From contig LN717261.1 in the NCBI GenBank assembly GCA_001244265.2, forward strand, positions 310,001 to 374,000: a DNA stretch of 64,000 bases, in the 5' to 3' direction. The position numbers and the translations under genes are program-made. The first letter of the stretch is position 1; each line of letters opens with the position of its first letter. The stretch is from Microbotryum violaceum (taxonomy: Eukaryota). Shown piece by piece: positions 1,149 through 37,253 of the stretch. The notes under the pieces were generated by a model. It did no database searches. It was not told the DNA's origin and worked only from the letters and a program-made list of their open reading frames with translations.

Positions 1149-1181
1149 AGGACCCCCGAGAGCCCAGCCGGAGGCGCGTAG
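1149..1181 (+). repeat. Left TIR of P-like element
   Basis: AGGACCCCCGAGAGCCCAGCCGGAGGCGCGTAG versus reverse complement of the right end AAGACCCATGAAAGCCCAGCCTGAGGCGCGTAG. Confidence 0.85.
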
Positions 1182-1515
1182 TGCCGACTGGACAAATTGT
1201 GGGCCTCAGATGGGCCAAAATCGCCAAGGCGCGTAGTCGGGGGTGGACAAATCAGGGTGCGCCGGTGCGGATGGGGGCCTAGGCCCGTAGGTGCCAGTGG
1301 ACAAATCTCGGCCGATTTCAGCTACATTCGGCTTGGTGCGGCAAAGTTTGCCGACCCTCAAGAGCGTGCGGGAGCGCGCGCGAAACACTCTGGGCTATAC
1401 CGAATCAACAACAACGGCTCTAATTGTTCAATATTTGCAATGTAACCTCTTGGCTGGTTGAACGAAAAGTCCGAGTGCGCACGTCTCTTGCCTCCCCCAC
1501 CGCGTCGCGTCGTCT

Positions 1516-4500
1516 GTGCCATCATCGTCATTATCCTACGTTCTCGCTTCAGCCAGCTTCGACGAAATGTATCTAGACGATCCGGATATCGAGCTTCTTG
1601 ACGATGATTTCGAGCGAATGGCACCCTTGAACGTGAGGGTGTCTCGAGCTTCTCGCCTTCCGCTTCGACAGCCCACTGCAGACACCCAGATAACCCAGAT
1701 ACAGCTTTCATGGTCGACAGACGAGCCTCTCGAGTGTGATACTCTTCCTAGGCCGCTCGATGCTTGGACGGACAAGTTCAAGGATCGTGGAGCAATTACT
1801 GCGGCGCGTGAGCAAGGTTACCGGTCAATTGCTATCGCTGGGCACCGGCTGCCTTTCGGTGTCAAAAGGATTTGGCGGCATATAGACTACGCCGAGCGCA
1901 TGCGTTCGATCGTTATCAGTAGCCAAGAGTGGATGAAAACTTATCTGGGTGTCAACATCGAAGATCAGCCTCTCATCGTCAAGGCTCTGGAGGTGCTGCC
2001 GTCATTAATCGTTGAGGAGCAATATACTCCCTCAATGATCCTCGGGTGTAGCGCGTCCTTGCGCACGCTGCTCGATTTCGTCGGTAAGTAGCCATTTTGT
2101 TTGCTTGTTCGATCGCGTGATTGACTGGGACTATTCTTCGTGCTTTTCCTAGGGACAACGTGGCTTGGAGAAACCGCGATGGACGTTGCCATCGCCAGCG
2201 TACTAGCTTCATTGCGAGTAGAAGCGTCGACAGCACCTGACAAGGTGTACGGGGCATTCCCATCCGACCTCATGGCGATTTTGGTCGCGTCAAAAAAACA
2301 TCACCCTGACTCTCCTCAACGTGATGTTCTCGACAAATACACCTTCACATCACCGCGTGTTCCCTAACGAACTCTCGCCGATCTTCGATCTTTCGTTCGA
2401 GCACGCCCTCAATCGATCTGGTTTCTCCCGCTCTGCTTTCGCAATCATTGGGCAATGGCACGTGTTGATGTTGAACAAAGGACATGGTCGGTTTTCAACT
2501 CGCTCTCGAATGTTCGGATCGACGAGATTACTCCTAACTCGGCACTCGCCTTATTTGACTACCTCGAGCTACGAATTCTCAACACTGAGCCGAAGCAAGG
2601 CCGCATGGTTCAACAGGCTGACAGCTTCTCGTGCGGACCAGCGGCTATCAATGTCGTCGAAACCGAACTTCTTTCGGTTCCACCTTTCTCTGCCGGTCGC
2701 GCTCATATCTCTCGCATTCGCCAGTTTCACCGACTAGCAACATTCGCAATCAAATCTCAAGATCTCACCCATGACTTGCCCGCGCCCATTGCCGGCATAG
2801 ACAAGAACGATTTGGACGTTGGTGTGTTCGAGGAGATGGTCGAGATGGTTGACGAGGAGACATGGTCCGAGATATGCTTCAGCTCAGATTCCGAGACGGA
2901 CGACGATTACACCACGGACGACGATTGCACCACAGACGACGAAACTCCGAAGCCGGGGGAATCAATCACAGCACGACGAGCCAGACTAGCCAAGGAGCAT
3001 CTTAAAGACATCGAATACTCGAAGGCTCGCCCCGCAGCATTTGCTGAATTCAAGGCGAAGGTCAAGCAGCTCTGCCCAGGTTCGGACGTGAAGATTGCGA
3101 ATCCCAGAACGGTACAGTGCGGTCGCTGTCGTACATATCACAAGATGAAGACACGGCACGGCGTCACTCGCTTCATGAGGCATATTAATCAAAACCCGCC
3201 GTGCACGAACATGCGCAAGATCGACCACTACTTTGCTGTTCGACCGCCCGCGGAAACGGCTGTCCGGTCGCAAGGCAAAACCCTGGAAGATTCTCCCCTG
3301 TGTCCCGGCCTGACAGGCAAGCGGGTAGAGCGATACCTCTCAAAGAGCTCTGCTCGAGGTGGAGGTGCACCATCTCGGCTAAAGCTCATCAAGAGAAGGT
3401 TCCCAAGACTTGGCAAACGTGTGTGCTGATTCCCTCCGAACGCCGTGAGATCAATAATCTGGAAGCGAACGAGTGGATGTGGGTGAACGATCATTCAGCA
3501 CCTCGAGTGAACAGTATCGACTGTACCAAGATCGGAGTGGAGTCTCAATGTGGAACAAAATCGCAGCCTTGCGCCAAATGCAAGGCACTGCTTCGCACGA
3601 AAGCCTTTCCACAGGCGTTATATCGGCCTCGGGCTGTCGGACCCACAATCAAGTTCACGAATAAACGATTGGCTTCCGTCGACGCTCTGATGTCAAAGGT
3701 TTTCAAGGAACACCAAGGTCTGGAGGAACTCTTGGGGACCAAGGATGGCAAGATCTATCTTCGTTACGCCCAAGGTTTAATTGTCGGCGAGCTTGCTGGA
3801 GCAAATATTCTGAAAGGTATGGCAAAAGTTGCCGTGATCAAGCATAGGCGAAACGCACAAGGCAAGGACATGAGAGGCTATGTGCGAGACGAAGCTTTGC
3901 TCGACTTTGAACACGCGCTGGCTCTGGCATCTCCCACGGCCTTGCGCGTGGTGCAAAAAACAATTGGAGGAATCTCGATGCGCACACTTCAGTAAGTTTC
4001 AGACCTGAGCTATCCGTCACTCCTTCAAGCTACTGACAATCACAAACCTCTCAGACAACACCGAGCCACATTTGAAAAGCCCAGGTTCGGCTTAGATGAG
4101 CCCCACATGCAGCGCGTTGTCCAAAAGATCCTTTCGGATGGAAAGACCTTCAACCTGCATGTCGACGACACGAAACTGCGGCAAGTAATCAAGACAACAC
4201 GGATTTATTCGAAGGACAAGGAGGCGGAAGCTCGCCTGCGCGGCCAGAAAATCTTTCGTCACGAGCTCATTGGCATGGTTGGCCCGCCAATCGTGTATGA
4301 AACCACGCGGGAGCTCGAGGGTATCTTTTGGGGACCGAACCCTCCGATCGCTGGCACCAAAGTCGGTGACTATGTCTGCGCGGCGCTTTGATTGGATGCT
4401 CATTTGCTGGCGCTTCTGTGAATAGGTTCGAGTGTACATGCTTGCACCAAACGATGTCTCTTGCCCAGCCCAATACCTTGCCGCATTCGTGATTGGCGAC

Positions 4501-7367
4501 TCGACGAGCTCATCCGAGGCTGCGGATGAATTGGAATCAGTTATTCAATTCCTTGTCAACGCTGGGCTAGGTCATCTTCTTGCCTCCATCTCGGCGGATG
4601 GGGCGGCAAGCGAAGGCGTCTTGCAGCGCGTCATGGCAGAGCGACTTGGCGGCGATGAGGGGTATACCGGAGAGGGGAACCGTCGGCGAGAGCTCGCACA
4701 TGTCATTCCATCTCCAGGTCCCGACAAAGTCTTCCCAGCCATTCGACTGGCATCCGTTCAAGTGGGCAACACTCCAACGTGCTTCAATCGGGACGAAAAG
4801 CACTTGAGCAAAAATCTCCGCAGCGCGTGCGATTCAGGCGCCAGGGCAATATACGGCCCGGATGCATCGGATATCGTGAGCTGTTGACGCTGCTCGACGT
4901 CGAAGAGTCGACAAGGACCTTGTATCTACGCGATGTGATTGGACGTAATCGTCAAGATGACAATGCGACGCATCGAGCGTTCTCCGAAGCTACTCTCACG
5001 CTTGCTTGCCGACTTCACGAGGACGGCAGAGTCGATGCCGATGCCATCGTCTTCCTCTTTCTCTGCGGCGAGCTTCATGACTCGGTACAAAATAGGTCAT
5101 TTCAGCCGATTGAACGTATCAAGATGCTATTAATGGTTCGTTATACGTTTGAGGGCTCGTTGACCTTCGTGCGCATTCGTCCCGGGTACAACGCGCAGTC
5201 CTTTGTAGCCAAGGAGACCCTAGATGGTATGCGAAAGGTCGTCGATACAAACATCGCCCTTATTTGGAACTACCGCGACTTTTGGCCGGAAGAAGCGTTC
5301 ATACCTTGGCGACATGGTACGGAGATGGTCGAGCATTTTTTTGGCGGTTTGCGCAAACTCGTGCAAGAATTTGATGCTTTAGAATTCCTGCAGGTAAGTC
5401 ATCTTTTGTTTCATGGTTTCACGTGAGCTACTGCTTGTAAAGCTTATATTTTTGGGCCTTTAGTCGGCAAGCAAAGTTACTGCGCTCCTAGGATTGATGC
5501 GAAAGTTCAAAACAGAGACCGCAGGCTCGCGGCAAGGCTACCATCACACGTATGACAGGCTCGACGATCTCGACCTCGTCGCAATGCGGACTCATCCAAA
5601 CGATGAAGAGATTCGATCCACAAGCTTGGTTGCTGCAGGACTTGCAAAAGAGCTCCTTCTTGGTCTTCGAATCTGGGATACCATACATTATCAGAAGTCC
5701 AACCAGGTAGAGGAAGAGATACCGGTCAATGGTGGGTGTCGCAAGCTTGTGGCTTCGTTTTGAGCAAAGCTGATTGATGCCGCCCCTTACAGCTAGTGAA
5801 CCTTGGCATTTCGAGCCCGAGGACACTGAGCCGGTTTCGTACCTCGCTGACCTAGATCGGACCCTCAATGGGATCCGAACCAAAACGTGCCAAGGTCTCG
5901 TCGTGCTGGACCCGAAAGAGCGAAAGTCAGTTGAAAATGCTGTTCGCTCTTTAGCTGCTCTTGGCCTTGACAATGATGCTGCACTGTAAGTTGAGTGCTT
6001 GAGACCTGTGCCAGCCTCATCCAAGCTGATGGTACGTCTCTTTCAATTCTAGGCTTGCCGTTCAGCAGGTCTATGATGAGGCCGATGCTCAAGCAGAGGA
6101 ACGCTTTCTACTCGACGCCATTGAGACAGCAAATGAAAGCTTGCCAGGTCGTGTGGGTTCATTTAAGCAGCAACTGTCTTCTTGCAGAACCACTAAACAG
6201 AACCAGCACTCTCTCACAGGCTCAAATTCTTCGGCTCCCATCCCTTCTGCGTCACGACACTCCTCGTCAGTTTGCGCTTGATCTGAAAAGCTTGATTGAG
6301 CACCGTCGGGCCCATCAAAGTGCCCACCTCAAGGCTGTCCTACTCAAGGGAAGGCACGGCGCCCCCACCTCGACTGCCCAAGATTTCGATCCCACATCAA
6401 AAGCGCAATTGTCCGAGCACGGTGAAGTGCACTCCAGTGTCCTCCGAGGCTTAGTGCAATCAATGGGTGCAGCCCGTCTCGAAGCTGTGTCAGGAGTTGC
6501 GAGGTCCATTCGTTGGACAGGACAAGGGACCTTCAGTCGCTTTTCGACCGCAAACGAGACAGACAACATAGGATACATCGAAGACGGACGTAAAGAAGTG
6601 AGCTACAATCGTGTGCTGTGCACATATCGCCCAGAGAGTGCTCATCAATAATGTTCATTCTTGCCCAGGTACGGATGCAATTGCGAGCAAGGCAATACAC
6701 TGTATTCGCCAAGATCCCAACGTTTGGGTCGATTGACGGAAACGTCACGTCAGCCATGCCTTTGAAAATCGGCTCTCTTGTCTGCTTCGGATTGAAACAA
6801 GGCATCATACCTATCAGTTGTGACGCCAGCAACATAGGAGAAGAACAATTGTCCATTGGACTTGGTTTGTGCATCTCACTGTAGCTAGCTTACTGCTTTG
6901 CAGAGTGACTGACATCGATTTTACCTCTCGTAGTACGTTACATGTATGCCAAGGCCACGTCAAATCATTGTGACAGAGCGGAGACCGACTCCCCCGCATT
7001 ACTCTCGAATGTCGTCCTCCAAGAATTACGAGTTGTGAGCAAGGACCGTTATTCAACGCATATGATTGACGGCACCACTCGCTTCTTTGGACTCGATGCT
7101 CGACAAGTTATTCAATCCTTGGAATCATCCTCAACGCCCGCCCTCACTCTCGCACCCCAGGATTCAGTCGCATACCTCGGGGAGCGTGTCTTCGACTTAA
7201 GCCAGCAGGCTGAGGCAAGGTTCTGTTTTCTTCGACGCTGCAACGGATTACGGAACGCTTCTGTGTCCTTGAATAATCAAATGAAGGGTGTGAAAGATGT
7301 AGGGTCAAAAAGGAAGGCAGCAAGTGCAGGTGAGGAGCCCTCAGCCAAGCAGAACCGAACTGGCTGA
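1516..7367 (+). pseudogene. Spliced, disrupted gene: Ulp1/C48-like peptidase followed by Cys-rich region and P/THAP9-like DDE transposase
   Basis: Protease motifs WLGETAMD, FLPLCFRNHW (His 2446), FNSL, QQADSFSCG (Cys 2632). Transposase motifs HVDDTKLR, SADGAASE, RDEKHLSKNLR, RQDD, TEMVEHFFGGLRK. Frameshifts or stops near 3429, 4391 and 4887. Confidence 0.75.
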
Positions 7368-7581: not shown

Positions 7582-7614
7582 CTACGCGCCTCAGGCTGGG
7601 CTTTCATGGGTCTT
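7582..7614 (-). repeat. Right TIR of P-like element
   Basis: Reverse complement of 1149-1181 with 5 mismatches; followed by the TSD GGCGAGGG. Confidence 0.85.
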
Positions 7615-7642
7615 GGCGAGGGGCGAGGGGCTTCGACTGGCT

Positions 7643-7701: not shown

Positions 7702-7831
7702 CGCCTCTCCGCCTCTCCGCCAGTCTCCGCCTGCCTCCGCGCTTCGCAGCGACCGGCTTCAGCTGGCGCCTCGAGCCGGGCTCGTTCGCTCCCTCTAGCA
7801 TCGCCAGCGCACCCACACTTTTCACCTCACC

Positions 7832-17404: not shown

Positions 17405-17652
17405 ACATGTAAGGATATATCCTTACACATGAGTTAAGGTCAATACACAACCAAATCTGTTCATCTTGATATTGTAACATCAACATATAACTATTTCTGA
17501 ATGGTGTCTGCAAGGACTACATGATAGCATGTGTATTGCAAGACTTGTAGTGATTCAAAATTTCTGTGTCCTTACCGCACCCTCGTATCCTTACATGTGT
17601 CGACATGTGTAAGGATACGCCCGCGCGCGCATGTGACATGTGTAAGGATACG
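17405..17652 (+). repeat. Left MULE TIR, rich in palindromes and (T)AAGGATA motifs
   Basis: Contains the perfect palindrome TGTAAGGATATATCCTTACA and the near-palindrome TATCCTTACATGTGTCGACATGTGTAAGGATA. Confidence 0.9.
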
Positions 17653-24872: not shown

Positions 24873-27800
24873 TTACAGAGACACTAGGCGACCCTTGGAC
24901 TCCTGGATAGAGGCTCGAAGCCCCTCGAACTCTGTTTCGGTGATCGGTTCCAAAAGATCCGACGAGAATCGACGACGGCGACAGAGCTTCCAGATTGAGT
25001 GAAAGAAGAGGACTCGTAGTTCGACAAGTCGACGTTCCGAGCGAGACACGACCGGGCATACAAAGTCCACAAAGACTGGGTGGGGGGTCGGGGACAGAGC
25101 AGACCAGAGGCGCCGGGCAAATGTGCAGCCAACCGCGACGTGAACCAGGCACTCGGGTGCTTCCGAGAGGCACATCACACAGGAGGTAGATCGATTGTTG
25201 GGATGTGGGCTGGTTGGGGAGGCGACTTGGCTTCCCGGATGGAGGGAGCCCAGGGAGAGAAGGTGGCCGGTATCCTCGGCGTCCGAGTGAACCCGGCGAA
25301 CCTTGCGCAAAGCCTTCCACCAAGCGTTCCAGCGTTGCTCAGGCAGATCGAATACCTTCTGGTGTCCCTTGGGGAAGATAGGGGGGAAGATGAAGACTTG
25401 GTGGCGTTGGAACGCGTTCACAAACGAAGACGGGGTCATCACCTCGCCATCGGGCCCTCGAAAAAGCGTCGGGTTTACCGAGAGTTGTATTCCGTGACCC
25501 GCTGGGAAATAGAGTACGTGCGTCGCCCATTGCTCGAGGTTCTGGCTCTTGGAGAGTTCCGGGGGATTAAGCGTGGTCACCAACGCCCAGGCTTCGAAGT
25601 ATCGGACCCAACGAGCAGGAAGAAGTTTTGTCGTTTTTCTCACCGCATGGTCCCACTTTGGGGGAGGATGGCAAAAGTATGCCCACCAGATCCAAATCCA
25701 AGGGCAACGATGCTGGTTGGGGGCCGGTCTGGACAAGGTGAAAGGGGTTGGTTCGTTTGGTGCCTGGAGGCGGATGCGGATGTCGAGGAGGTGGCGTGTG
25801 AAGCAGCCGTCCGGGGCCCGGAGCTGGAAGACCCACTTCGCGTGATCGATTGCTAGACGCCGAGGCAGATCAATCAAACCGAAGCCGCCGTGATCAAGAG
25901 GGGTGCAGAGGCGCGACCGGGAGACCTTCGGACGTCGCTGAGTACCGTCCGAAGCTCGACCGTGAATGGCGAGCATGGCGGCCTCCTCGATCTCCTTGAC
26001 AACGCTCTTGGGGGCGGGAAGAAATCGGCTGTAGTACAAGATCTTTGTGTAGCAGTAAATGTTGATGATCGAACACTTGGCTGCATATGGGAGATCGTAC
26101 ATCGGAATCGAGCGTATCCGAGCGATGGTCGAGGCCTTGACATCTTCCCAGCCCGCATCCTCGGCGATCTCCACCCCGACCTGAATACCAAGGTAGCGAA
26201 ACTGCGAATCGCTGAGACGCCAGGTCCCGAGATCTGGGGCGATCGACCGATCCCGAAAAGCTCCAAGGGGGTAGAGGAAAGATTTGACGATGCTGAGCTT
26301 GCTGGCACTTGCCCGTTCGTAAAGCTCGATCGCCTGATTGAGGTGGTCGAGGTCCGAGAGGTTGTGGAGTGCGCAGCAAGCGTCGTCGGCAAAAAGGAGT
26401 TCGCGAACGTTTTGGAGGCCCGCAATATCGATGCCCTTGACTCTCAATCGAATCTAACAGGCAAAACCTTCGATCGCCAGGACGAAGAGAGACGGAGCCA
26501 AAGGATCACCTTGCCGAACGCCCGACAGGATGTCGAAAGTGGCAGAGAGCCAACCGTTGAGGAAGATCGAGGCAGATTGGTTGGTGTAGGTCGCTCGGTA
26601 CCATTGGCGGGCTTTGGGGCCGAGGCCAACGGCGCAGAGGACTGCATCAAGGTACGGGTGGGAAAGACGACCGTAAGCCTTTTCAAAGTCCATCACCGCT
26701 AGCATGCCAGACACGGGTGTTGAGCCCGGAAGTCCAGGGTCCATGAGACATTGGACCTCAGCGATGTTCGTGCCGATCCAACGGTTCGGAACAAAGCCAC
26801 GTTGGGTTGGGCCGATCAGGGACTCGAGCAAGGGAGCGAGGCGCTGGTTGTGGGCTTGCGAGATGATGCGCTCGTCCGCATTGATGAGCGATATGGGGCG
26901 TTTGTTCGAGAGCTGATCCCTCTCGCCGCGTTTGTGGATGAGATGGATGTGGGCGGTGTTGCGGGGAAGAGGTCCAGGCTGACGGGCCTCGGTGGGGATC
27001 GAGTTGATGACGTTTCGAAGAATCGGACCAGTGGCCGGCCACGTAGCGCGATAGAACTCAACCGGGAGGCCGTCAGGCCCTGGCGAAGAGTTCGACTTAC
27101 ACGCCGCTTGAGCCTTTGTCATCTCCTCCAACGGGTACGCTTCCTCGAGCTTGAGTGAGTCCGCGGGGAGAGGCGAGTTGAAGCGAGGCCGTCGATGATC
27201 GCCTTCAGGGCCGCGTCATCGATGGGGCGGTCCTCATAGACCCGCTCGAAGTAGTCGCTGGCCGCTCCAAGCATCGAATCAGGGTCGGAATGAACAACAT
27301 CGTTGACCGTGAGCGAAGGGATCAGGTCGGATGCTCGCACTTTGCGCAGGCGGATGAAGATGGAAGAGGGACCCGCCAGAGATGGGTCGAGGCGGGACCG
27401 CAGGGCCGCGCCGTAGCGCGAGTGGTCAGCCCTCTCTTGCTCCGACCCGCCACGACGGAACCGAGCGAAAGTCCGGGCCAGAGCCTGCAGCTCGGGCAGC
27501 AGGCGGTGTTTGGTGGACGTCCAAGCTGCTGGTGGATCGTTGGGCGTCTGGAGGAGGGCTTTGTTGTAAAGGGTGCGGACAATGGAGGTGAGGTACTTGC
27601 AGGTCGCGTCGCCCTCGATCACGTGCAAACCTAGCTTGAATTTGCCCGGACCGATGTCGATTGCGCCCGGCACTTGGAACCGTGCCACAACCATTGAGTG
27701 CGTCGATTTGAGGACAGGAGCCCAAATTTTGTGATCATGGAAGAGGTCGACCCAATCAGGCGAGACATAGATGCGGTCAAGGCGACGGCACGTGCCGAGC

Positions 27801-28443
27801 GCTGAGCGATTCGTCGTGGCTCGTCCTTTGGGATGATGGAGCCGATAGGCGTCGAAAAGATTGTTGGCCGTGGCAAGGTCGCGCATCTCCTGACCCCCAT
27901 AATTCGTTCCGTTTTGGTTCTCCGAATCGAGGGGCTGGGACTCAACACAATTCCAGTCCCCCCCTACTAGGAGCGCAGGCGGCGAGGGTTCGTCACGTAC
28001 AACTTGTCGGAGGGCGGTGCTGAGGTGTGAGAGGAAGCGTTTTTTGTCTGGCTTGTCGGAGGAAGGCGCGTATATTGATACAACCCGGACTTTTGAATCA
28101 CCCACACAAAAGGTGGCGTCGGTGACTCGGTCCGGGAAAGAGAAAGAGGCACGAAGGGTGTTTGGAGGCGACTCGGGATCAAAAGTAATGACCACGGAGT
28201 CGCTCTTCCAAAGTATGGCAGTGTTGTTGAAAGAAAGAGAGCGGAGAGCTTTAAGTCTTGACACTCCTGAGTCCACTGGGCCACCCTTTCGGGGGAAGGT
28301 CGGCCAGTTTTGCTCAGGAGAAAGACGTCGGCGTTATGGGAGTGGAGATTGGAGAAAAGAGAGGCACACTTACGGTCTTCATTGATTGACTGCACGTTGG
28401 CAGCAACAAAAGATACGTTTGGAATTTTAGTTGTGCTCATCAT
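24873..28443 (-). pseudogene. LINE ORF2: AP endonuclease, reverse transcriptase, C-terminal Cys/His finger
   Basis: AANVQSIN, SIYAP, GGDWNCV, RRLDRIY, SPGPDGLP, RPISLIN, DFEKAY, GVRQGDPLAPSLF, LFADD, YLGI, GGFGL, CVMC..H..C. Frameshifts near 28260 and 27130; stop at 26454. Confidence 0.92.
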
Positions 28444-29650
28444 CTTGGTCCATAGCGTCTTCCACGCCCTTAGGAGGTGCTTCTTGGTCTTCGGCTTCTT
28501 CGTCGGCCTCGTCGTCGGTGTCGGCGTCATCGGGTCGGGCTTTGGGCGCGGCTGAGGGCAAAGGCGTGGGCGAAGACGGCTCGGGGATCGGCTCGGAGGC
28601 AGGGCTGGGGGGCAGGAGGAGTGGCAGTTTTGCAAGGGAAATTGAAGGAGAACTCGGGGCGGGCATTCTTCCACAGAGAATCGGGCTGAGCTCTGTTGGA
28701 CAGGTCTTCAGTCTGGGCAGCCAGATCCTGTTCCACTCGACGTTTTTTGGTCGTGCGGTCGTGGGCGGAGGCCGGGGAGATCGACTTGGACACGGCGGCG
28801 GGGGCGGCGGTGGTAACGGTGGAGGCTTGCGGGGCATGTGACGTGGGGGGTCCCTGGGGGCTCGACGCATGACGGGCCGCGCAGTGCTGGGTGGCGTGCG
28901 AGCCGGGGCGACGGGGCAATCCTTACGGACGTGAGCCGCGGAACGGCAGAAGACGCAGTGGCGCATGCCACCGGTGATCCTCAGTGGGATTCACTCAGTG
29001 ACACCGTCACGAGCAATAGAAAGTGAGGCAGGGGGCAAAACATCTACATCCTTAAGGGCAAGGATAAAGTCGTACACCCCAGAGATGTGTTTCGTCTTTC
29101 CAATGTATTGGATGCGACGACGGAGGACCGTGCCGTAGGCAGCGATCTGCTCATCGAATAGGCAGAGGCCCTCGGGGTCGGAGAAAAAGCCCGTAAGGGT
29201 GCATTGTACAACACCTCCTCTAGTAGAGCTGTACAGCTTCTCGACTTTGCACAGAGTCTTGCCAACAGTGAGGCCGTTGGCCACCAGGGTGTCGAGATCG
29301 GCGGCCTTGGGAAAGCGGAGGCCGCGCTGACCCTTGATGACGCATGGCATTGCGCCGGTAAGGCCAGGGTAGTATTTGTCAAGCGCGAGGAGGACTTGCT
29401 CGACCGAGGTTGAGGGTGGGGTGTTGATGATGACACAATTCTCGATGTTGTGCATCAGTGGATGGGCGGCGACGGCAGTCGAGGCGTTGGCGGTGGCGTT
29501 TCCGTGCTTCGCAGCGGAGCGGGCGCCGACCGCGGCGGAGTATGATTTGGTGGTGGTGGCGGGGGCTTGGCCGGGGGGATCGGGAGGGTCAGGGCGAAGA
29601 GGTGGTATAGCAGCATGGCTGGCGTTGTTGGTGTTGTTGTTGTTGTCCAT
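28427..29650 (-). pseudogene. LINE ORF1 (gag-like, CCHC zinc knuckle)
   Basis: One frame broken by a single TGA at 28991; CVFCRSAAHVRKDC knuckle; acidic tail overlapping the ORF2 start. Confidence 0.85.
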
Positions 29651-29830
29651 CCAATAGGAGTTTCCTTTTTCAAGTCGGCGACGACCTAAAAAAGGTGAGA
29701 CTCCTTTCGGTGGAATGGGAAAGATTCAATTCGACGCGAAGTCAAATTAGGTTGTGGATGTAAAGTTTGCAACTAGCAAATGACCTAAGCTCGGTTATAA
29801 ATCTCACTGCTATAGGTGCTTGCCCGAGCA

Positions 29831-30062
29831 ATCCTTACACATGTCGACACATGTAAGGATACGAGGGTGCGGTAAGGATACGGGAGGTGCGGTAAGGACA
29901 CAGAAATTTTGAATCACTACAAGTCTTGCAATACACATGCTATCATGTAGTCCTTGCAGAGACCATTCAGAAATAGTTATATGTTGATGTTACAATATCA
30001 AGATGAACAGATTTGGTTGTGTATTGACCTTAACTCATGTGTAAGGATATATCCTTACATGT
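29831..30062 (-). repeat. Outer part of right MULE TIR
   Basis: Reverse complement of 17405-17626 with one extra 20-bp subrepeat. Confidence 0.92.
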
Positions 30063-31185
30063 ATACAAGCCGTTTTGCGCGCCCGCAACTCGTCTAGCCT
30101 CGTTCATGCGCGACACACGCGAGCTCACGCGCGACACTCGCGCGGACTCACGCGGCCGCCTTCTTCCGCACACACACGTCGCCCCCACGTCAACCTTGTC
30201 CAGTCATTCCCCGCTTTCATAACGACTCTGTTTCACTCAAGAGTCAAAAGCTTTCAATTGCCATCATGAGAAAGTTAGATGGCATCATTTTGACTTGGGA
30301 GAGGGAGTTGGCCGCCAAGGGTGCAGGTACGTTGCAAGCTGGGAGCTCTTTGTCGAGTCTTTGAGCCCTCCTGATTCGGGCTGGATCAGGTGCAGAGGTT
30401 CTTCTAATGCTGATATTTGATACATTTGCTTCTGAGTTTTGGGAACAGCGACCTTCACGCTGCACCAGCACCGCTCGCTACGTCACCTCAACGGAACGTC
30501 GTCGCTGGACGGAGCATATACGATTTGGACATGCTCGATGTATAATCAAGTTCTCAAGTTGTACGACAAAGCAGGACAGGATGCAATTCAGGACACGTTG
30601 CCCTCCAAAACAGGTTGATCCGTCTGATTGATGGAACCGCGGACCTCTCGTCATGGGTCAATCGAGCCTAGCACCTTCAAGCTCAGGAGGCAGAACCACA
30701 CCTCAAGAATCGCTCTCTCGCCTTTGCGGAAGGACAGAGGCGGAAGGAAGGTACTGTCACCCCTCTCGCTACAAAGCTCCCTTCTTCACGACACACTCAG
30801 TCGCCGCGCACGCCCCTCAAGTCAGCCATGAGCAACGCCAACAACCCGCATCCGGAGGCATTGCCTTCTTCCGCAGAAGCAACTATCTCACCCTCTAACC
30901 GCCCGCATCCAAACCTCATTTGTGAGTCAAAGCATTCAGAGTAGCTGGGCGTCCCCAGCGCCGGCCGACTGTCTAGCTTGCGTGCTCACCTTGCGTTCTT
31001 CAGTCCGTGGCAGCGGCGCTGAGTTTTTCAACCCTCCGCCAGCTCTTGCCGCCCACGCCCCACTTCCCCACCCCATTCATCAGTTCTTTATGCAGACGCC
31101 CGCTCCGTAACCCACCCCGAACTTTTATCCTCCTGCTCACGCATCACTCGGATATTCCCACCCTGGACCCAATTACATCCCGCAT

Positions 31186-34100
31186 TTGCCTCCTCCACAT
31201 CAACCCTATGCCCCCCCTCAGCCGTACCATCCCATGATGCATCATCAATACGACCTATCTCCTCTCCAGTCATTTACGTCCCACCGACATCCGCCACTCC
31301 CCTCAGCAAATATTATGAATCAGCCTCCGTTTGTGCCGCACCCGATCGCCCAATATCCCGTGCCCAACCCGCACATCCCCTCCCAACTCGACTTGATGGG
31401 TCCGGATTCCCAACTGGCCAACCACCACGCGACCGCCCTTGCCCTTGCTACTGTTCCTCCATCAGCTTCCTCGACTGCATCCCCTTTACTACCGCGTCCA
31501 GCCGTTCCCACTCAGTCTCAGCATGCGGCCACACCCGTCACTACCGAGTACGCCTCGACTTCGCCGTCTTCGCAGGCTTTCCCAAGGCCACTCCCTATCC
31601 CAGTACTTCAATCATCTGAGCATTCATCGCAAGCAGCACCGCATCTTCAATCGCGACCCCAATTGGCTGAATCTACTCCGTGGCGAAACTCTGTTGTTCC
31701 CGCTGACAATCCGAATCCGAGGCCGAATCACGCGCCTCAGAACCCCCAGCCCTTCTTCGATGATATACTTGATCGCGTGACTCGGCCGATACTTGGACGT
31801 ACCTCCGGCTCCACTAGCGCCAATTGACGCCCGAGGGTTGCCGCATCGTCGCGCCTTTCCAATCGAATCAATCCAATTGCCCCAGTTGATACAATGCGAC
31901 GGTTGCACGACGATTTCACCGCGCAGTGCAGGGGCAGGCCGTCTCAAGAACAAGCCAATCTGCTCCTGACTGATGCGCGCTTCAAAGGCCTTTTGTTCCA
32001 CGGACGGGTTTCCCAACTGTCTGACCCTCAGGCAAAGCCTTCGGGCAGGAGTGGTTGCGATGTTACACCCCTATTCCTAGCCAATGTGAGTGCGCCGCTA
32101 TGACATACTTCTTTGATGCTTAAAACTAGTTCCCTGATGTCTTATTAAGCCAACAGTCCGATGAAGACAACGACGGCAACAGAGCGAGCCCGGTTCTTTT
32201 TCCTAGGTCTGGGTTTGACACAATCGTCAACATGGAGTGCGCATCCAAGGCCCCGGTCAGAATTCCGAAGCATTGGACCACCGATCGTGAGGCAATGACT
32301 GCCGTTGCCGTAATTATTGAGTCTTTGCCAGCGTTGGCTGTGAGTCATTTGCTACGCCTTTATGGAAAACATCCATAATCCTTTTGTTGTAGTACTGACA
32401 TCCTTGTACTTTTGAACAGTTTCATCTTGACCGAGCGGCGTTCAATTTGGAAAGGGATTGCACGCATTTGCAGGACTACTTCATCGTTGCCAGGGCTTCG
32501 TCCGAGCGGATCGAGGGGAAGTCGTGCTTCGTCTCTAGAGACAACGCGAATCTTAAGCCTCTTTCTCTTTTCCCACACAAGAGCTCGGCAGAAGCCTCGG
32601 AGCTGGCCACCATCCTGTCTCACAGGCCAATCACCTTTGGGGAGCCAAACTCTAAGCGTCGTGTCTTGGCGTTGTGTGAGCCACGTCATTCAGGACTGGA
32701 CTACATCATGGTAGCAAGAGCCACTAAACTGATTCAGCTTTTCTTTCATCCTTCTTGCCAGACCCGACGGCACAGCAGCACACGTTTGGAATAGGTTTTC
32801 CCTTCAGTGCACTCAATATGGTGGTATGTCACGCTACAACCGCAGTAATTTATAGTACCAGTCCACTGCAGACACTAATGGGATGTTCCTTTCTCTGTCA
32901 CAGCCCGGCGACTGCTATGCTCCAGACGGCGGCAACGGCGACAACGGCAACAATGGCATCAACGGCGACAACGGCAACAACGGCGACAACGACGATGACA
33001 ATCCGATGTGTGCATCTTTGTTGCATCCTCCTTCCACCAACACCTCAAATGATCGTGATCGGGAGCCCACAGCTCTTTCATCAGACCGAGACCTAGCCCA
33101 AGGTGTCACCAACCACTCTCGTGCTGGGAATTCAGCGGACCCTATCGCGCAAGCAAGCACTGATTTTGACCTTGAAGCCGACATGGATGATCTGTTGCCT
33201 CCATTTGGTTCTACTGGCCGGGGAGAAATACAAGAGGATCACACCCAATCAAGGACTCGCCGCCGAGCTCAGAGCCATGACTCGCCTTCCATAAGGTCGA
33301 GCCACTCTCGAGAGATGGAGGACACCGACAGTTCCGAGGATGACCAGTATTCGTATCCTCGTCGCCAACGCCCGCGCCATCGGAGTCCAAGTCTCATGCG
33401 CTAAACTTCCCCTTCCGGAGACCGTCAAGCAGGTAGTCGTGTGATCGCCGCGTCGGAGAGTGTTACCACAATCACGCACTTAGGCAATGCTTCTTCTGTT
33501 CGTCAACTCGAGGCTTGTGATCCGTATGTAAGCCATCTAGGCTGACATGTGAATGCGACTACTTTCCACAGTTGCCTGCGATGCCTCCTCTGCGCGACGG
33601 CGGTTATAGCGACCGTGACTGGGTGGCTCTTTCAGATTGTCTGCGAGCCAATGTGAAACGCACCCGCCGGGAATCTGAACCCCACATCTCAACACTCTCA
33701 CACTGCTTTCATTACACCTCTCCAACACAAGAATTCAACTCGCAGCATCTCTTCAATCAGTTCAGGAAATGGCTCTCGAAAATCTCGACCGTGGACATCG
33801 TCTCGAAGCAATCCCGATTCACCGTAGCGTGGGAGTGAGTGCTCGCATCATGTCTGCATACCGCTCAGCTCTGTGACACCTAACTCACTGAAATATTCTT
33901 TCAGTCTCCCTGGCATCCAGATCGATGAAGACTTGAGCATGACCTGTGGTTTCGCACCTTTGTTGCACCTTATCAATGGAACCCTCAGCCATCTTCACAT
34001 CTTCCGACAACGTCTTCAACCCCTCACTCGTTGGGTCCACGGCGCGGAAGGATGGAAAAGAGGGTAGCACATTGCTCTACATTTTTAATGACGACCTGCC

Positions 34101-35511
34101 GGCCGAAATTTGGAATCAAGAATGCGTTGAGGAGCGGATGCAAGAGGTACTCCGACTCCTTGCCCTGGCCTTGGTTCACCTCGAGACGTGGCCCGATCAC
34201 ATCCACCCGCACATGATTTTGTGAGTGTGCAACATCATCAAGTGTGTCCCTTTTCAACAACGAATTGACCGCCCACACTGGCGCCTTTTTACTCGCTCTG
34301 TTGCAGGTTCCTTCTTGATGCCGCAGCTCAGAGCGCCAAAAGCTCAGAGGACTCATTCAAAATTGATGACCTGGTCGAGTGGGTCTGTCCCAACCTTCTG
34401 GCCCGGGTCTGCCGCATTTTGCGCACCAGTCCCACATTGGTCAAAGACATGGATGAATACACGCGAATTCAAGTTCTTGGACTCTACGGCAGGGCCAAGT
34501 TCACAAATATGGTGCGTCTCAGACTCGGCTGGTGTTGACTGCGTCGTGTCTTTCTTCAATCTTGCTAACACCACTCCATGGACTCTATGCGCTTCCAGGG
34601 TGAGAGCGAAGTGTCGGAGAAAGACTGGACTCTCTTAGAAGAGTCTCGAGCAAATCGGTCACTTCTTGGGGATTTGTATCGGAATCGAGTTCTGGGCAAG
34701 ACCGCAAAAACCCTAGCCCAGCGAACCGACATTTACTTCAGACTTTCGCGTTGTACACGAACTGTGACGGACGTCCTGTTGGTATGTGCTAATCCATGGT
34801 CATCTATAGATCCCAGGCGGTTTTGGTTCTAACATGCTTATGTATCACATTGCAGGGCCTACATTCAATGGCAGAGTCGCAGGATCTAACCCATTACGCA
34901 ATGCTGTGCAATATGCGCGCCTGGCCGCCGTCAGCCGATCGTTCTTTCAAGTTCACGAAGGAGACTTACCAAGTTGAATGGTGCGGGGCTTCTCAAGCCG
35001 ATATTGCTGGACCAAGTAGTCGACCCTACAATGCACTTCCCGCAAGAATCCGAGGAATGGGTGAGGCGGTTCTACTCAAGGCGCTCGAGTCGATGTCAAG
35101 CGAGGAGGCAGTTGGCTTCTGCAAGATTGCCCACCCAACGCACGGATTTCCAGTTGCTGATCAGAATGATAACGTCAAGGTGAGTGTCCAGTGGCTGTCT
35201 TCCTAACCCTGCTGGTCACGGGAAACATCCTGACCCACAACAGATGACTCACTCCACTCGCTGCTCTGCTCGGACTGCAGTTTGTCGTGCACTGGGAGAA
35301 GTGTGGCTGCAATGGGCTTGCCTCCCGCTCGGTAGTGCCATTGGGGCACATCTTACTTCAGGCGTGCCTGGGACAAGTGCATTTGAGTCTGAGAACTTTG
35401 GGTGACCTGCTAAATACCACACCACAGGAATTCAGACCAGCTTTGGCGGCGGACGTCAAACTAGCTCTTGTTGCCTCCGCCGGAGTGGATGTGACATTCA
35501 ATGCCGGATGA
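31186..35511 (+). pseudogene. Multi-exon cargo gene, Pro-rich N-terminus and degenerate HECT-like C-terminus
   Basis: Exon fragments with GT-AG boundaries; LLALALVHLETWPDHIHP (N-lobe-like), ILLQACLGQVHL (Cys 35365-35367), terminal TFNAG* with Phe at -4. Exon model uncertain. Confidence 0.4.
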
Positions 35512-35530
35512 TGACGTGCAATTTCAACCA

Positions 35531-37253
35531 TCACTCAAGCAGTTGCTCCATAGCACGCACACTCTCCAACCATCTGTCAACCGCTGAAGCATGCCATCGC
35601 TCCGTCATCCGCCGCTGGAGCGCTTCAAGACCTTCGGGATTATTGAGAAATGGCGAGCGTTGACTGTGCAAGTCAACATGACTTCTCACTTCCTCTCCAA
35701 ACATGTTGTTGTTTGCGTTGCCTGCTTGTTCCGTCGACTCCGGAATGTGCAGGTTCTCGTCATAGATACCTCGGCCTCCGTTTTGAATGCTGCCGGACCA
35801 GAAGAGTTGGTTTGGTGTGGATCGCTGCTCTGTGCGAAGCTTGTGGTTGTTCCAAACATCTTGACACCATGCCAGGTCCTTGTTGATATCATCGAGAAAT
35901 AGGAACTCCAAGAGCCACACATGTCGGGAGAGCTCGATGTTGAGGCCATGCTCGTCTTCCAGATGACGAAAGCGGTGTAGCCACGCATTGAGAACGGATT
36001 TCTTCAGGTCACGCCAGAACCTTTCAATTCGTTGGTTGTGTGGGGACCTGAAGATTGTGGGGCCGCAACATGACTATGATCAGCGTTGGAGACAGCAACC
36101 TGGGGCCTAGGACGGGTCATGGTGCGGTGACTTACGTTCCCCAAAGGTAAGATCCGCGCCCAAGACCGCGAACGGCTTCCATCATTGCAGCCACTTGAAC
36201 GTTCTCTCCCCCGCTATCTCCTCTGACTCGAGACGGAACTGGGTAGAGTGCAATAGCGTCTTGGAAGACGCTCAGTACCGTGCTTGCCCGATTATTCGAA
36301 GATGCTCTGACCCCAGCAAGGACGCGGGAGTACCCGTCAATGAATCCATGTATGACAATGCCAAACGAGATGAGCGCATGTTGGCCATCGTGATGCCACA
36401 GCGCGTTCGGCCCCGCCACATTGTACCTGCGCCTCATCACCGGGTGATTCGCATGTACGTGACGGCGAAGCGGACGCGTGCGCTGGATCGACGCTCGAAG
36501 TGCTTCTCGGGGAACGTCGATACCCCGAGCCCGGAGTGCACCTCCCACTAGTATTTCGCCCAAGCTTGTTTCGTGATCGAGTATCTCCATCACGAGACGA
36601 TCGAGTTCGGCATCGGGGAGGAGGGTCCGGACCCTCGTGCGCTCGAAGGGTTGTCGCACTTGTTGATCAACGATGGCCTTTCGTATGGTCCGTCGAGAGA
36701 CCCCAAACAGCTTCGCAATTTGTGTGGTACCAGGATTTTGCTCATGAGCAGCTTGTCATAAGAGTCCCGGGTCTACTTCAAGTTGCGGTCGGCCCCGTGC
36801 CCCACTTCGCACAGACGTGACGAAGCTGCTAAATCCTACCAGCATTCGCGCGGCCAGCCCCTGCCGGCGACTTTCCTAATCAGACCGGCGTGAACGTGGC
36901 TGAGACAGTCGTGTCGGTGGCCGCGCTGATTTGCGCTGAAAGAGATGACAGTAAAGAGTCGAAATGCTCAAGGCCAGTCGTCTCTTCTTGAGGATCGAGA
37001 GCACCCACTTGGATCGCTTGTTGGAACTGCGCTCGGTTTGACGCGAGGCGCTCGTGGCACTCGAGGAGGCGATGACGATCACCATCACAGTTCGCAAGGG
37101 CGTACAGGGCTTTCTGCACGTTTGCTGACCAGGTTGACGCAAGTGAATGCAAGTCGATGGCCGTTCCGCGCTCTTCCATGGGTTAGCATCCATCGGATCA
37201 GATGCGGTGTCAGCTGTCAGGTGTTTACGAGGGAGGTCTGCGTCCACATCCAA
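35531..37253 (-). pseudogene. IS3EU-type DDE transposase/integrase
   Basis: HTH TQIAKLFGVSRRTIRR; RRRYNVAGPNALWHHDGQH, IHGFIDGYSR, PSRVRGDSGGEN, (intron) SPHNQRIERFWRD, WNNHKLRT. 5' part has stops and frameshifts. Confidence 0.85.

What the first reader, a model, noticed from the sequence alone, without database searches (positions are those of the whole stretch)
1149..37253. Three unrelated DNA transposons each carry a different ubiquitin/SUMO-system enzyme (Ulp1, USP, HECT)
Seen: the P-like element has a Ulp1/C48-like His..Gln..Cys set, the MULE has USP-like Cys and His boxes, and the IS3EU-like element has a HECT-like C-terminus. Established: plant MULE and CACTA elements carry Ulp1 domains, and SUMO/ubiquitin pathways take part in TE silencing and protein turnover. 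Inference: transposons in this genome have convergently acquired Ub/SUMO erasers and writers, possibly as an anti-silencing or transposase-stabilising toolkit. Three different pairings within 36 kb suggest a genome-wide pattern.
Basis: partly seen in the sequence, partly recalled or inferred. Interest (0 to 1): 0.85.

Follow-up and report, generated by a model that had tools for sequence, protein, structure and literature searches.

The report
Fungal transposons carrying ubiquitin/SUMO enzyme domains
In a transposon-rich stretch of an anther-smut fungus genome, one DNA transposon clearly encodes a SUMO-protease domain, a second encodes a probable deubiquitinase-like domain and a third unit may encode a very divergent ubiquitin-ligase-like domain, which extends a known habit of transposons more than it reveals a new principle.

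Summary
The window is a Microbotryum transposon nest (protein hits 83-99% identical).

1. Element 1149-7614 has 31-nt inverted ends and a candidate 8-bp target duplication. Its one long gene contains a Ulp1/C48 domain, which Pfam scores above its cut-off. The gene continues into a P-element-like transposase, a call that rests on language-model features only. This pairing is confirmed.

2. Element 17405-30062 is MULE-like, with ~245-nt inverted ends and a LINE nested inside. Its gene ends in a ~400-aa Cys/His domain found only in Microbotryum. The motif order is USP-like, and the Cys motif weakly hits PLpro and OTULIN catalytic sites. Pfam UCH, profile searches and AlphaFold2 gave no confirmation. 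I rate a deubiquitinase-like protease as likely, with the fold unproven.

3. At 30.3-37.3 kb an IS3EU-type integrase gene abuts a convergent 1085-aa ORF. Its C-terminal part is HECT-like by language-model features and motifs read by eye, but not by Pfam, PDB searches or fold prediction. No inverted ends were found, so it is not shown to be transposon cargo.

All three window copies carry stops or frameshifts. Transposon-borne Ulp1, OTU, C19 and VTD proteases are already published. A HECT-type cargo would be new.

The parts
1141..1148 (.). candidate 8-bp target-site duplication GGCGAGGG, left of element 1; its partner is at 7615-7622
   Evidence: Read directly. The flanks are GGCGAGG-rich, so chance is not excluded.
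1151..1181 (.). left terminal inverted repeat of element 1 (element span about 1149-7614)
   Evidence: 31 nt, 87% complementary to 7582-7612.
7582..7612 (.). right terminal inverted repeat of element 1
2155..2724 (+). Ulp1/C48 cysteine-protease domain. The N-terminal half (TTWLGETAMD...) is read by eye. An in-frame TAA lies at 2365-2367. The catalytic half at 2416-2724 carries His, Asn (in place of Asp), Gln and Cys.
   Evidence: Pfam PF02902 at 24.1-27.3 bits against a cut-off of 20.7. Intron 2084-2152 and the TAA were read.
3423..7364 (+). remainder of the same gene: zinc-finger-like region and P-element/THAP9-like transposase, with introns and a frameshift near 4858
   Evidence: The 1375-aa model P0005 (90% identical) maps to 2455-7364. 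Language-model neighbours carry the P-element transposase families PF21787, PF21788, PF21789 and PF12017 at scores 0.83-0.95. Pfam itself found none at E<=1.
17405..17648 (.). left long terminal inverted repeat of the MULE-like element
   Evidence: 17405-17594 matches 30062-29872 at 98.4% over 191 nt, and 17569-17616 matches 29878-29831 at 100%; 17611-17648 matches 24661-24698.
29831..30062 (.). outer part of the right inverted repeat of the MULE-like element; the inner part is at 24661-24698, split off by the LINE
24699..29830 (-). LINE (reverse transcriptase and endonuclease) nested in the right inverted repeat. It has a T-rich tail at 24699-24716, and ATCCTT stands on both sides.
   Evidence: Pfam RVT_1 and Exo_endo_phos. 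Junctions read.
19657..23154 (-). MULE-like transposase gene region: zinc-finger-like CMGVFVCCDQSCPGKRRPH and a DDE-like core. It is broken in the window by stops at 23040 and 20716 and a frameshift near 21325.
   Evidence: The 1034-aa model P0015 maps here. No Pfam MULE hit; the only weak hit is GCM at E 4.2.
18208..19386 (-). Cys/His deubiquitinase-like (USP-like) domain. Cys codon 19291-19293, His 18364-18366, Asp 18307-18309. The in-frame TAG at 18946-18948 lies in an intron of the homologous gene models.
30828..35203 (+). large ORF corresponding to the 1085-aa model P0007. Premature stops at 31825 and 33402 fall inside gap-free alignments.
33572..35511 (+). HECT-like C-terminal region. 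Two candidate last exons: 35281-35508, open, reached by an AAG|GTGAGT...CAG| splice read by eye; or the frame used by models P0008/P0009, which holds a TAG at 35333-35335 in the window.
   Evidence: Language-model search. Sequence reading. No Pfam, PDB or fold support.
35534..37182 (-). IS3EU-type integrase gene: N-terminal exon 36880-37182, HTH plus core 36135-36755, a 61-nt gap between ORFs read as an intron, and core 35534-36073. Its stop codon lies 19 nt from the end of the open + strand exon.
   Evidence: Pfam rva_4 at E 5e-35 and 3.1e-25 with contiguous profile positions 2-97 and 98-189, plus weak HTH hits..

Best explanation
The region is a nest of decaying mobile elements in a Microbotryum genome. 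Three units with different DDE-type transposases each encode an extra domain that is, or looks like, an enzyme of the ubiquitin/SUMO system.

1. A P-superfamily element (1149-7614) has a single gene. It starts with a Ulp1/C48 protease domain and runs on into a zinc-finger region and a P-like transposase.

2. A MULE-like element (17405-30062, with a nested LINE) has a transposase gene that ends in a lineage-specific domain of about 400 aa. The domain has an invariant Cys, His and Asp. Its motif order matches USP-fold deubiquitinases: Cys box, helical stretch, CxxC...HKxxC, 'SLPRV', His box, 'LFYE'.

3. A low-copy unit (about 30.3-37.3 kb) has an IS3EU-type integrase gene and a convergent large gene whose last 430 aa or so may be a very divergent HECT domain.

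Inferred mechanism, not shown: the protease domains are delivered in cis with the transposase. They would remove SUMO or ubiquitin from the transposase itself, or from chromatin and repair factors at the excision or integration site. That would protect the transposase from turnover or blunt SUMO/ubiquitin-dependent silencing. A HECT-type ligase would instead mark a host restriction or repair factor.

The copies in this window are no longer intact. The stated confidence refers to the structural reading: at least two of the three extra domains are real Ub/SUMO-type enzyme domains encoded within transposons.
For: Organism: best protein hits are Microbotryum models at 83-99% identity.

Element 1:
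- C48 scores above Pfam's cut-off.
- It has 31-nt inverted repeats and a candidate 8-bp duplication.
- One 1375-aa model joins the C48 half to the transposase.
- P-element transposase families dominate the named language-model neighbours.

Element 2:
- The inverted repeats are 98.4% identical.
- The 1002-aa model P0001 joins the transposase core to the Cys/His domain.
- A second subfamily at about 45% identity (P0004, P0010, P0012) keeps Cys, His and Asp, and 133 columns are invariant in alignment A4.
- The Cys motif hits the catalytic-Cys position of PLpro (Pfam PF08715 positions 106-122, E 0.016-0.066).
- It also aligns with OTULIN over the stretch containing 'DNYC' (E 0.24).
- Summed contig depth over the domain (735-973 in run X1) is not lower than over the transposase part (557-699). 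Both are about 9-15 times that of the neighbouring unit.

Element 3:
- rva_4 integrase at E 5e-35 and 3.1e-25.
- 25 of 30 language-model neighbours of P0007 residues 640-1085 are HECT clusters, score 0.92.
- By eye, and set against HECT motifs I recall rather than against any call, there is an N-lobe-like start (FTVAWDLPGIQIDED...FNPS), a C-lobe-like 'SEEAVGFCKIAHPTHGFPV', and an open last exon ending ...QACLGQVHLSL...VTFNAG with Phe at -4.
- The two genes end 19 nt apart.
- Rust-fungus IS3EU elements are reported to carry a second gene in the opposite orientation (PMC12730594, passages).
Against: USP reading:
- Pfam UCH or UCH_1: 0 hits at E<=1 on the 11 sequences scanned whole and 0 at E<=10 on fragments.
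- The family profile against 1.84 billion representatives found 8 proteins. Five are the family itself and three match only through the chimeric N-terminus of P0003. None carries a USP family.
- The profile and the whole protein against PDB sequences gave 0 hits at E<=10.
- The AlphaFold2 model is unusable (pLDDT 29.6).
- The PLpro hit disappears with the P0002 variant of the motif and with the subfamily-2 fragment.
- The OTULIN hit points to a different fold, OTU.

HECT reading:
- No Pfam HECT hit at E<=1 or E<=10.
- No HECT chain among the PDB sequence hits.
- The AlphaFold2 model is poor (pLDDT 40.5), and Foldseek gave nothing at E<=0.001.
- The language-model hit shares 162 features, below the 170 that the tool says is typical of true family members.
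- The position of a catalytic Cys is ambiguous. In the frame used by published models the window has a TAG immediately before the Cys.

Element 3 as a transposon:
- No inverted repeats and no TAYGG/CCRTA ends were found.
- Only one contig at 90% likeness or more covers it in each of runs X1, X8 and X18, so mobility and cargo status are not shown.

MULE call: there is no Pfam MULE hit and no target duplication.

C48: Asp is replaced by Asn, and a TAA interrupts the domain in this copy.
Confidence: 0.6

Rival explanations
1. Only the Ulp1 domain is a true Ub/SUMO-system enzyme. The MULE-borne Cys/His domain and the C-terminus of the 1085-aa ORF are fast-evolving lineage-specific domains of other or no enzymatic function. 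Their resemblance to USP and HECT motifs is chance or pattern-seeking.
For: Every family-level test failed for both domains: Pfam, PDB sequence and profile searches, the search of 1.84 billion representatives, and the folds. By the tool's own figures, language-model hits of 0.9 or more occur for 4-10 in 100 shuffled proteins. The PLpro and OTULIN hits have E 0.016-0.24 on fragments that I chose after seeing the motif.
Against: The weak hits are not random families. Both hits for the Cys motif are ubiquitin-directed clan-CA proteases, and both fall on their catalytic-Cys stretch. Cys, His and Asp are invariant across two subfamilies only about 45% identical.
Confidence: 0.25
2. The HECT-like gene is not transposon cargo. 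It would be a low-copy host or orphan gene family next to which an IS3EU-type integrase element, or a remnant of one, happens to lie.
For: No inverted repeats or IS3EU-type termini enclose the pair. Each of runs X1, X8 and X18 has a single contig at 90% likeness or more over most of 30323-36844, and X1 and X8 bridge both genes in one contig of 6522 and 6504 nt. The segment 36854-37316, at the integrase 5' end, has higher depth (112 against 64.8 in X1), so the two genes may not share one copy number.
Against: At least three distinct gene models 94-97% identical to the M. lychnidis-dioicae model P0006 sit on different contigs of M. silenes-dioicae, as expected of a repeat. The 3' ends of the two genes are 19 nt apart. 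Published rust IS3EU elements carry an oppositely oriented second gene. The ORF is decaying (stops at 31825 and 33402), as repeats do in this genus.
Confidence: 0.35
3. The extra domains are passively transduplicated fragments of host genes (Pack-MULE-like capture) with no function for the element.
For: MULEs are known to capture host fragments (search listing only). All three window copies are damaged.
Against: Recent capture from a host Ulp, USP or HECT gene would leave strong Pfam matches. Instead the domains are highly diverged and, for the Cys/His domain, found only with the element family. Two MULE-linked subfamilies at about 45% identity keep the motifs, which argues for long retention. 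The domains are fused in frame to the transposase in gene models.
Confidence: 0.1

Closest known systems
Ulp1-bearing Mutator elements of plants, hydra and lancelet (KI-MULEs) and Ginger1 transposases with C-terminal Ulp1 or OTU domains (Bao et al. 2010, PMC2836005; passages read)
   Same: A DDE transposase and a SUMO/ubiquitin-directed cysteine protease are encoded within one DNA transposon, often as one protein.
   Different: Here the Ulp1 domain is N-terminal on a P-like transposase in a basidiomycete. I found no paper describing that pairing. The MULE-like element here carries a USP-like Cys/His domain, not Ulp1.
Trichomonas vaginalis protein combining transposase_11 with Peptidase C19 (cited in PMC2836005; passage read)
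   Same: A ubiquitin-specific-protease-type domain fused to a DNA transposase.
   Different: That case is recognised by standard domain models. The Microbotryum domain is not recognised by Pfam UCH, and the transposase superfamily differs.
Helentron/Helitron-encoded OTU and VTD deubiquitinases (Erven et al. 2022, PMC9741609; passages read)
   Same: Transposon-borne deubiquitinases, proposed to protect proteins needed for transposition from degradation.
   Different: Those are rolling-circle elements, and VTD activity has been shown biochemically. Nothing is shown here.
IS3EU elements of rust fungi carrying an alpha-kinase gene opposite to the transposase, some with a TET/JBP gene (Kojima 2025, PMC12730594; passages read, supplements closed)
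   Same: Same subphylum (Pucciniomycotina), an IS3EU-type transposase, and a second large gene in the opposite orientation.
   Different: The published elements have TIRs over 30 bp ending TAYGG..CCRTA and 6-bp duplications, and none of these was found here. The second gene here shows no alpha-kinase or TET/JBP Pfam hit and is HECT-like at best.
Drosophila P element / THAP9 transposases
   Same: 31-nt inverted repeats and an 8-bp duplication (canonical values recalled, not from a call). Language-model neighbours carry the P-transposase RNase-H and GTP-binding families.
   Different: No THAP domain and no Pfam P-transposase hit at E<=1. There is an added N-terminal C48 domain.

Membership tests
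Peptidase C48 (Ulp1/SENP) | match to the family profile above the curated cut-off | tested here: met
   PF02902 scores 24.1, 27.3 and 25.9 bits against a cut-off of 20.7. Only profile positions 84-203 of 217 are matched.
Peptidase C48 (Ulp1/SENP) | catalytic His, Asp, Gln (oxyanion hole) and Cys at canonical spacing | tested here: inconclusive
   His (NHW), Gln at -6 and Cys (QQADSFSCG) are present. The position 17 residues after His is Asn, not Asp, both in the window and in P0005. The spacing rule is recalled from yeast Ulp1, not taken from a call.
Peptidase C48 (Ulp1/SENP) | SUMO or NEDD8 isopeptidase activity | not testable with these tools
   Needs biochemistry.
P-element superfamily | short terminal inverted repeats and an 8-bp target duplication | tested here: met
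   31-nt TIR at 87%. GGCGAGGG stands on both sides, though in low-complexity flanks.
P-element superfamily | P/THAP9-type RNase-H transposase with a GTP-binding insertion | tested here: inconclusive
   Pfam found none at E<=1 on P0005. Language-model neighbours at 0.83-0.95 carry PF21787, PF21788, PF21789 and PF12017.
Mutator-like elements (MULE) | long terminal inverted repeats | tested here: met
   About 245 nt, with 98.4% identity over 191 nt.
Mutator-like elements (MULE) | 9-11 bp target duplication | tested here: not met
   The flanks ggccacgac and atacaagcc differ.
Mutator-like elements (MULE) | MULE/MURA-type transposase domain | tested here: inconclusive
   No Pfam MULE, DBD_Tnp_Mut or SWIM hit at E<=10. 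The only weak hit is GCM at E 4.2. D..D..CxxH-like motifs were seen by eye only.
Ubiquitin-specific protease, C19 (USP/UBP) | match to UCH or UCH_1 profiles | tested here: not met
   0 hits on the 11 sequences scanned whole at E<=1 and 0 on six fragments at E<=10.
Ubiquitin-specific protease, C19 (USP/UBP) | Cys box and His box with a catalytic Cys/His/Asp(Asn) triad | tested here: inconclusive
   Motifs are present and invariant in two subfamilies. They depart from the consensus I recall: there is no Asn at -5, and the motif reads SHF or EHF where USPs have GHY. The Cys motif hits PLpro (a USP-fold protease) at E 0.016-0.066 and OTULIN (OTU fold) at E 0.24.
Ubiquitin-specific protease, C19 (USP/UBP) | thumb-palm-fingers fold | tested here: inconclusive
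   AlphaFold2 pLDDT 29.6, so no usable model.
HECT E3 ligases | match to the HECT profile (PF00632) | tested here: not met
   0 hits at E<=1 on P0006-P0009, 0 at E<=10 on three C-terminal fragments, and no HECT chain in the PDB searches.
HECT E3 ligases | bilobal HECT fold | tested here: inconclusive
   AlphaFold2 pLDDT 40.5. Foldseek's best E was 0.85, with no HECT chain among the rows shown. Language-model features place 25 of 30 neighbours in HECT clusters.
HECT E3 ligases | catalytic Cys about 32-36 residues from the C-terminus, and Phe at -4 | tested here: inconclusive
   There are two competing last exons. One is open in the window, with a Cys 47 residues from the end and Phe at -4. The other (models P0008/P0009, 'LPPARKC') has a TAG before the Cys in the window. 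The HECT rule is recalled, not taken from a call.
IS3EU/GingerRoot | IS3-like DDE transposase without an HHCC finger and with an N-terminal HTH | tested here: met
   rva_4 at E 5e-35 and 3.1e-25, rve at E 1.2e-5, and weak HTH hits. The family features come from PMC10045372 (passages).
IS3EU/GingerRoot | TIRs with TA..TA (TAYGG..CCRTA) termini and a 6-bp duplication | tested here: not met
   There is no inverted repeat between 30063-31200 or 16400-17404 and 36700-37316 or 42380-44000. No TAYGG occurs in 29901-31500 and no CCRTA in 36501-37400. The ends may be lost or lie elsewhere.

The most novel reading that the evidence does not exclude
Microbotryum DNA transposons of three unrelated superfamilies have each recruited a different catalytic module of the ubiquitin/SUMO system. 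That would include the first transposon-borne HECT-type ligase (a 'writer'), paired with an IS3EU-type integrase, and a USP-fold deubiquitinase so diverged that only the element family carries it. This would point to an arms race over SUMO/ubiquitin-dependent control of transposition in a fungus that otherwise relies on RIP-like mutation.
Probability: 0.25. Interest if true: 0.75.

Novelty: new variant of a known kind. Interest (0 to 1): 0.5.

Why it matters
Transposon-encoded SUMO and ubiquitin proteases are widespread, but their role is unproven. Here one genome offers two or three different enzyme types on different transposase backbones, and related species hold apparently more intact copies (P0004, P0005, P0010). 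That makes a compact system for asking what these domains do for an element: stabilise the transposase, counteract silencing, or steer repair.

A HECT-type ligase as transposon cargo would add a ubiquitin 'writer' to what has so far been a list of 'erasers'. I found no paper describing this.

The two orphan domains also show that standard domain annotation can miss such cargo entirely.

Tried and rejected
- No whole genome is held for the window, so no census of copies was possible.
Foldseek on the first gave only meaningless rows with E of 0.85 or more. I ran no fold search on the second.
- PDB sequence and profile searches gave nothing relevant for the whole domains.
- The profile search of 1.84 billion representatives returned only the family itself, plus three artefacts caused by the chimeric N-terminus of P0003 in my alignment A1.
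- Two metagenome scans found no relatives: 531 pattern matches and 64 pattern matches, none confirmed.
- I tried to obtain true USP sequences through the control genomes of the genome search, using a lambda locus as a handle. The controls are prokaryotes and nothing matched, so I built no USP or HECT reference profile. With such shallow query alignments it would hardly have exceeded Pfam's sensitivity anyway.
- No RNA holder was listed for 30063-37316. All four runs laid were contigs that behave as DNA, so splicing and expression remain untested.
- The 64-nt skip at 36817-36882 in one run has no intron-like ends, and I took it for an indel.
- The few differences listed between the window and the contigs (22 sites classified) are an incomplete sample: 438 rows were not shown. 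I drew no dN/dS from them.
- Three differences between the window and P0008/P0009 in the last exon all fall in one codon phase. With three sites this is not significant, and I dropped it.
- Supplementary tables of PMC12730594, which may list accessory genes of IS3EU families, could not be read.

Full report
**Setting**

The window has about 55% G+C and no N. Its best protein matches are gene models of Microbotryum silenes-dioicae, M. saponariae and M. lychnidis-dioicae at 83-99% identity. It is therefore an anther-smut fungus genome.

Pfam scans of stop-to-stop ORFs give this map:
- host genes: RNA polymerase I A49 (7915-9282), a Syp1-like muniscin (9755-12945), RhoGEF-FYVE, a protein disulfide isomerase and Mus7;
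- a DUF6589 element, a LINE and two Copia elements;
- the three units of the finding.

No whole genome is held.

**Element 1 (1149-7614, + strand)**

- *Ends.* repeat finder gives 31-nt inverted repeats at 1151-1181 and 7582-7612, 87% complementary. GGCGAGGG stands at 1141-1148 and again at 7615-7622. This fits an 8-bp target duplication, although the flanks are rich in GGCGAGG.
- *Gene.* One gene runs from about 1462 to 7364. A 1375-aa M. silenes-dioicae model (P0005, 90% identical) maps to 2455-7364 across several introns.
- *C48 domain.* Pfam Peptidase_C48 matches 2416-2724 above its curated cut-off: 24.1 to 27.3 bits against 20.7.
- *Catalytic residues.* His (NHW), Gln and Cys (QQADSFSCG) are present. 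The residue 17 positions after His is Asn, not Asp.
- *N-terminal half.* The N-terminal half of the domain (TTWLGETAMD...) follows a GTAAGT...TAG intron at 2084-2152. In this copy an in-frame TAA at 2365-2367 separates it from the catalytic half.
- *Transposase.* Pfam finds no transposase family in P0005 at E<=1. The language-model search of residues 300-1375 gives, besides unnamed basidiomycete clusters, only P-element transposase families (PF21787, PF21788, PF21789, PF12017) at scores 0.83-0.95.
- *Damage.* The window copy also has a frameshift near 4858 relative to P0005.

**Element 2 (17405-30062, genes on the - strand)**

- *Ends.* BLAST of the left end against the window shows that 17405-17594 is the inverted copy of 30062-29872 (98.4% over 191 nt). 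Also, 17569-17616 matches 29878-29831, and 17611-17648 matches 24661-24698. The element therefore has inverted repeats of about 245 nt.
- *Nested LINE.* The right repeat is split by a LINE at 24699-29830 (Pfam RVT_1 and Exo_endo_phos; T-rich tail at 24699-24716; ATCCTT on both sides).
- *Target duplication.* None is visible.
- *Transposase.* Models P0015 (1034 aa) and P0001 (1002 aa) map to 23154-17998. The transposase part has no Pfam MULE hit; the only weak hit is GCM at E 4.2 on the zinc-finger-like stretch. 'MULE' thus rests on the long repeats and on motifs read by eye.
- *Damage.* In the window this part is broken by stops at 23040 and 20716 and a frameshift near 21325.

*The Cys/His domain of element 2.* The ORF 17800-19743 holds the claimed boxes. 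Its single in-frame TAG (18946-18948) lies in a stretch that the homologous models splice out.

- *Distribution.* The domain has relatives only in Microbotryum. The word-based search found 4 proteins. The profile search of 1.84 billion representatives found 8, of which three are artefacts of a chimeric row in my alignment.
- *Subfamilies.* There are two subfamilies at about 45% identity. The second (P0010) also starts with a MULE-like N-terminus. They share 133 invariant columns, including the Cys of QGPW..xSCW.DS.L, the His of [SE]HF and the Asp of YHFDA.
- *Motif order.* The order is Cys box, helical stretch, CxxC...HKxxC, SITSLPRV, W.L.S.V....HF, YHFDA, LVSVLFYELE. This is the order I recall for USP domains.
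- *Objective tests that did not confirm it.*
  - Pfam UCH or UCH_1: 0 hits on the 11 sequences scanned whole at E<=1 and 0 on fragments at E<=10.
  - PDB: 0 hits at E<=10 with the whole protein and with the profile.
  - AlphaFold2: pLDDT 29.6.
- *Positive signals, all weak.*
  - The Cys motif hits Pfam CoV_peptidase (PLpro, a USP-fold deubiquitinase) at its catalytic-Cys positions 106-122, with E 0.016-0.066 in three overlapping window fragments.
  - It also hits OTULIN at E 0.24, aligned over the stretch that contains 'DNYC'.
  - The P0002 and subfamily-2 variants of the motif give no hit.
- *Reading.* I take it as a clan-CA, deubiquitinase-type protease. I put USP-like architecture at about 55%, OTU-like at about 15%, another clan-CA fold at about 10%, and no protease at about 20%.
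- *Depth.* Summed contig depth over the domain is as high as over the transposase part, and about 9-15 times that of the next unit in run X1. So the domain belongs to the multi-copy family. The tool warns that such depths are not copy numbers.

**Element 3 (about 30.3-37.3 kb)**

- *Integrase.* On the - strand, 36135-36755 and 35534-36073 match Pfam rva_4 at E 5e-35 and 3.1e-25. The profile positions are contiguous (2-97 and 98-189). The 61-nt gap between the ORFs reads as an intron. There are weak HTH hits upstream. This fits IS3EU/GingerRoot transposases as described in PMC10045372 (passages).
- *Large ORF.* On the + strand, a 1085-aa model (P0007) maps to 30828-35203. Shorter models (P0006, P0008, P0009) cover its C-terminal part.
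- *Tests that find nothing.* Pfam finds nothing in any of them at E<=1. The PDB searches find no HECT chain. AlphaFold2 gives pLDDT 40.5, and Foldseek gives nothing at E<=0.001.
- *Language-model search.* For P0007 residues 640-1085 it returns its own basidiomycete cluster first. After that come HECT clusters for 25 of 30 hits, at score 0.92 with 162 shared features. The tool's own calibration makes this a lead, not proof.
- *Motifs by eye, against HECT motifs I recall.*
  - The region starts like an N-lobe (FTVAWDLPGIQIDED...FNPS...).
  - It has a C-lobe-like SEEAVGFCKIAHPTHGFPV...VKV.
  - A consensus splice (AAG|GTGAGT ... CAG|) leads into an open exon, 35281-35508. That exon reads ...QACLGQVHLSL...VTFNAG*, with Phe at -4.
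- *Alternative last exon.* The M. silenes-dioicae models use another frame (..CLPPARKCDWG..). In the window that frame carries a TAG just before the Cys (35333-35335).
- *Damage.* The large ORF is broken upstream by stops at 31825 and 33402.
- *Estimate.* I put true HECT homology at about one half.

*Is the HECT-like gene cargo of the integrase element?*

For:
- The two genes converge, with 19 nt between them.
- The gene family has at least three copies in M. silenes-dioicae.
- Rust IS3EU elements carry an oppositely oriented second gene (PMC12730594, passages).

Against:
- No inverted repeats or TAYGG/CCRTA ends were found between the MULE-like element and the Copia LTR that starts at 37317.
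- In runs X1, X8 and X18 only one contig at 90% likeness or more covers most of 30323-36844. X1 and X8 bridge both genes in single contigs of 6522 and 6504 nt. X1 may be the source of the window.

The question stays open.

**Comparison with what is known**

- Ulp1 domains on Mutator and Ginger1 transposases, OTU on Ginger1 and Helitrons, and a C19 domain fused to a transposase in Trichomonas were listed by Bao et al. 2010. They already proposed a role of the ubiquitin pathway in transposition (PMC2836005, passages).
- VTD and OTU deubiquitinases of Helentrons were described by Erven et al. 2022 (PMC9741609, passages).
- TIR elements make up only about 0.42% of Microbotryum genomes, and a RIP-like process mutates repeats there (PMC10502011, passages). 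That fits the damaged copies seen here.
- I found no paper on HECT domains in DNA transposons or on a Ulp1 domain on a P-like element in fungi. These searches cover only the held library.

**Verdict**

The kind of system is known. The particular pairings, and above all a possible HECT cargo, would be new variants.

Noticed in passing
window 13353-16526 and 50630-50725: 13353-13403 and 16473-16526 both match the reverse strand of 50630-50725 (96% and 94%), overlapping there by 9 nt. This looks like a filled and an empty site, for an insertion of about 3.1 kb at roughly 13404-16472. That insertion carries the DUF6589 ORF (14718-15554, -) and has a 9-bp duplication.
   Followed up: partly
window 24699-29830: A LINE (RVT_1, Exo_endo_phos) is inserted inside the right inverted repeat of the MULE-like element. 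ATCCTT stands on both sides, and a T-rich tail lies at 24699-24716. Its summed contig depth is the highest of the stretch (1700-12400 in run X1).
   Followed up: partly
window 37317-42386 and about 43253-47494: Two Copia elements. The first has LTRs at 37317-37606 and 42100-42386 that are 98.3% identical, and it begins directly beside the integrase gene's 5' region.
   Followed up: partly
window 30063-30322: This 260-nt segment lies between the MULE-like end and the single-contig region. Contigs of all four runs break at 30323, and the bin depth implies that it is several-fold repeated. Its nature is unknown.
   Followed up: no
window 36817-36882 and 36854-37316: One run (X18) has a contig that skips 64 nt at 36817-36882, without intron-like ends. 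The segment 36854-37316, which holds the integrase N-terminal exon and upstream sequence, has about 1.7 times the depth of the rest of the unit in run X1.
   Followed up: no
window 21310-22623 (-): The MULE-like protein has two Cys/His clusters (CMGVFVCCDQSCPGKRRPH and CPITSCNGPMRHILC) upstream of the core. They resemble WRKY/GCM1-type fingers, but the only Pfam signal is GCM at E 4.2.
   Followed up: partly
window 7915-12945: Two apparently intact host genes (RNA polymerase I subunit A49 and a Syp1/FCHo-like muniscin) sit between the P-like element and the DUF6589 element. The nest is therefore interspersed with housekeeping genes.
   Followed up: no
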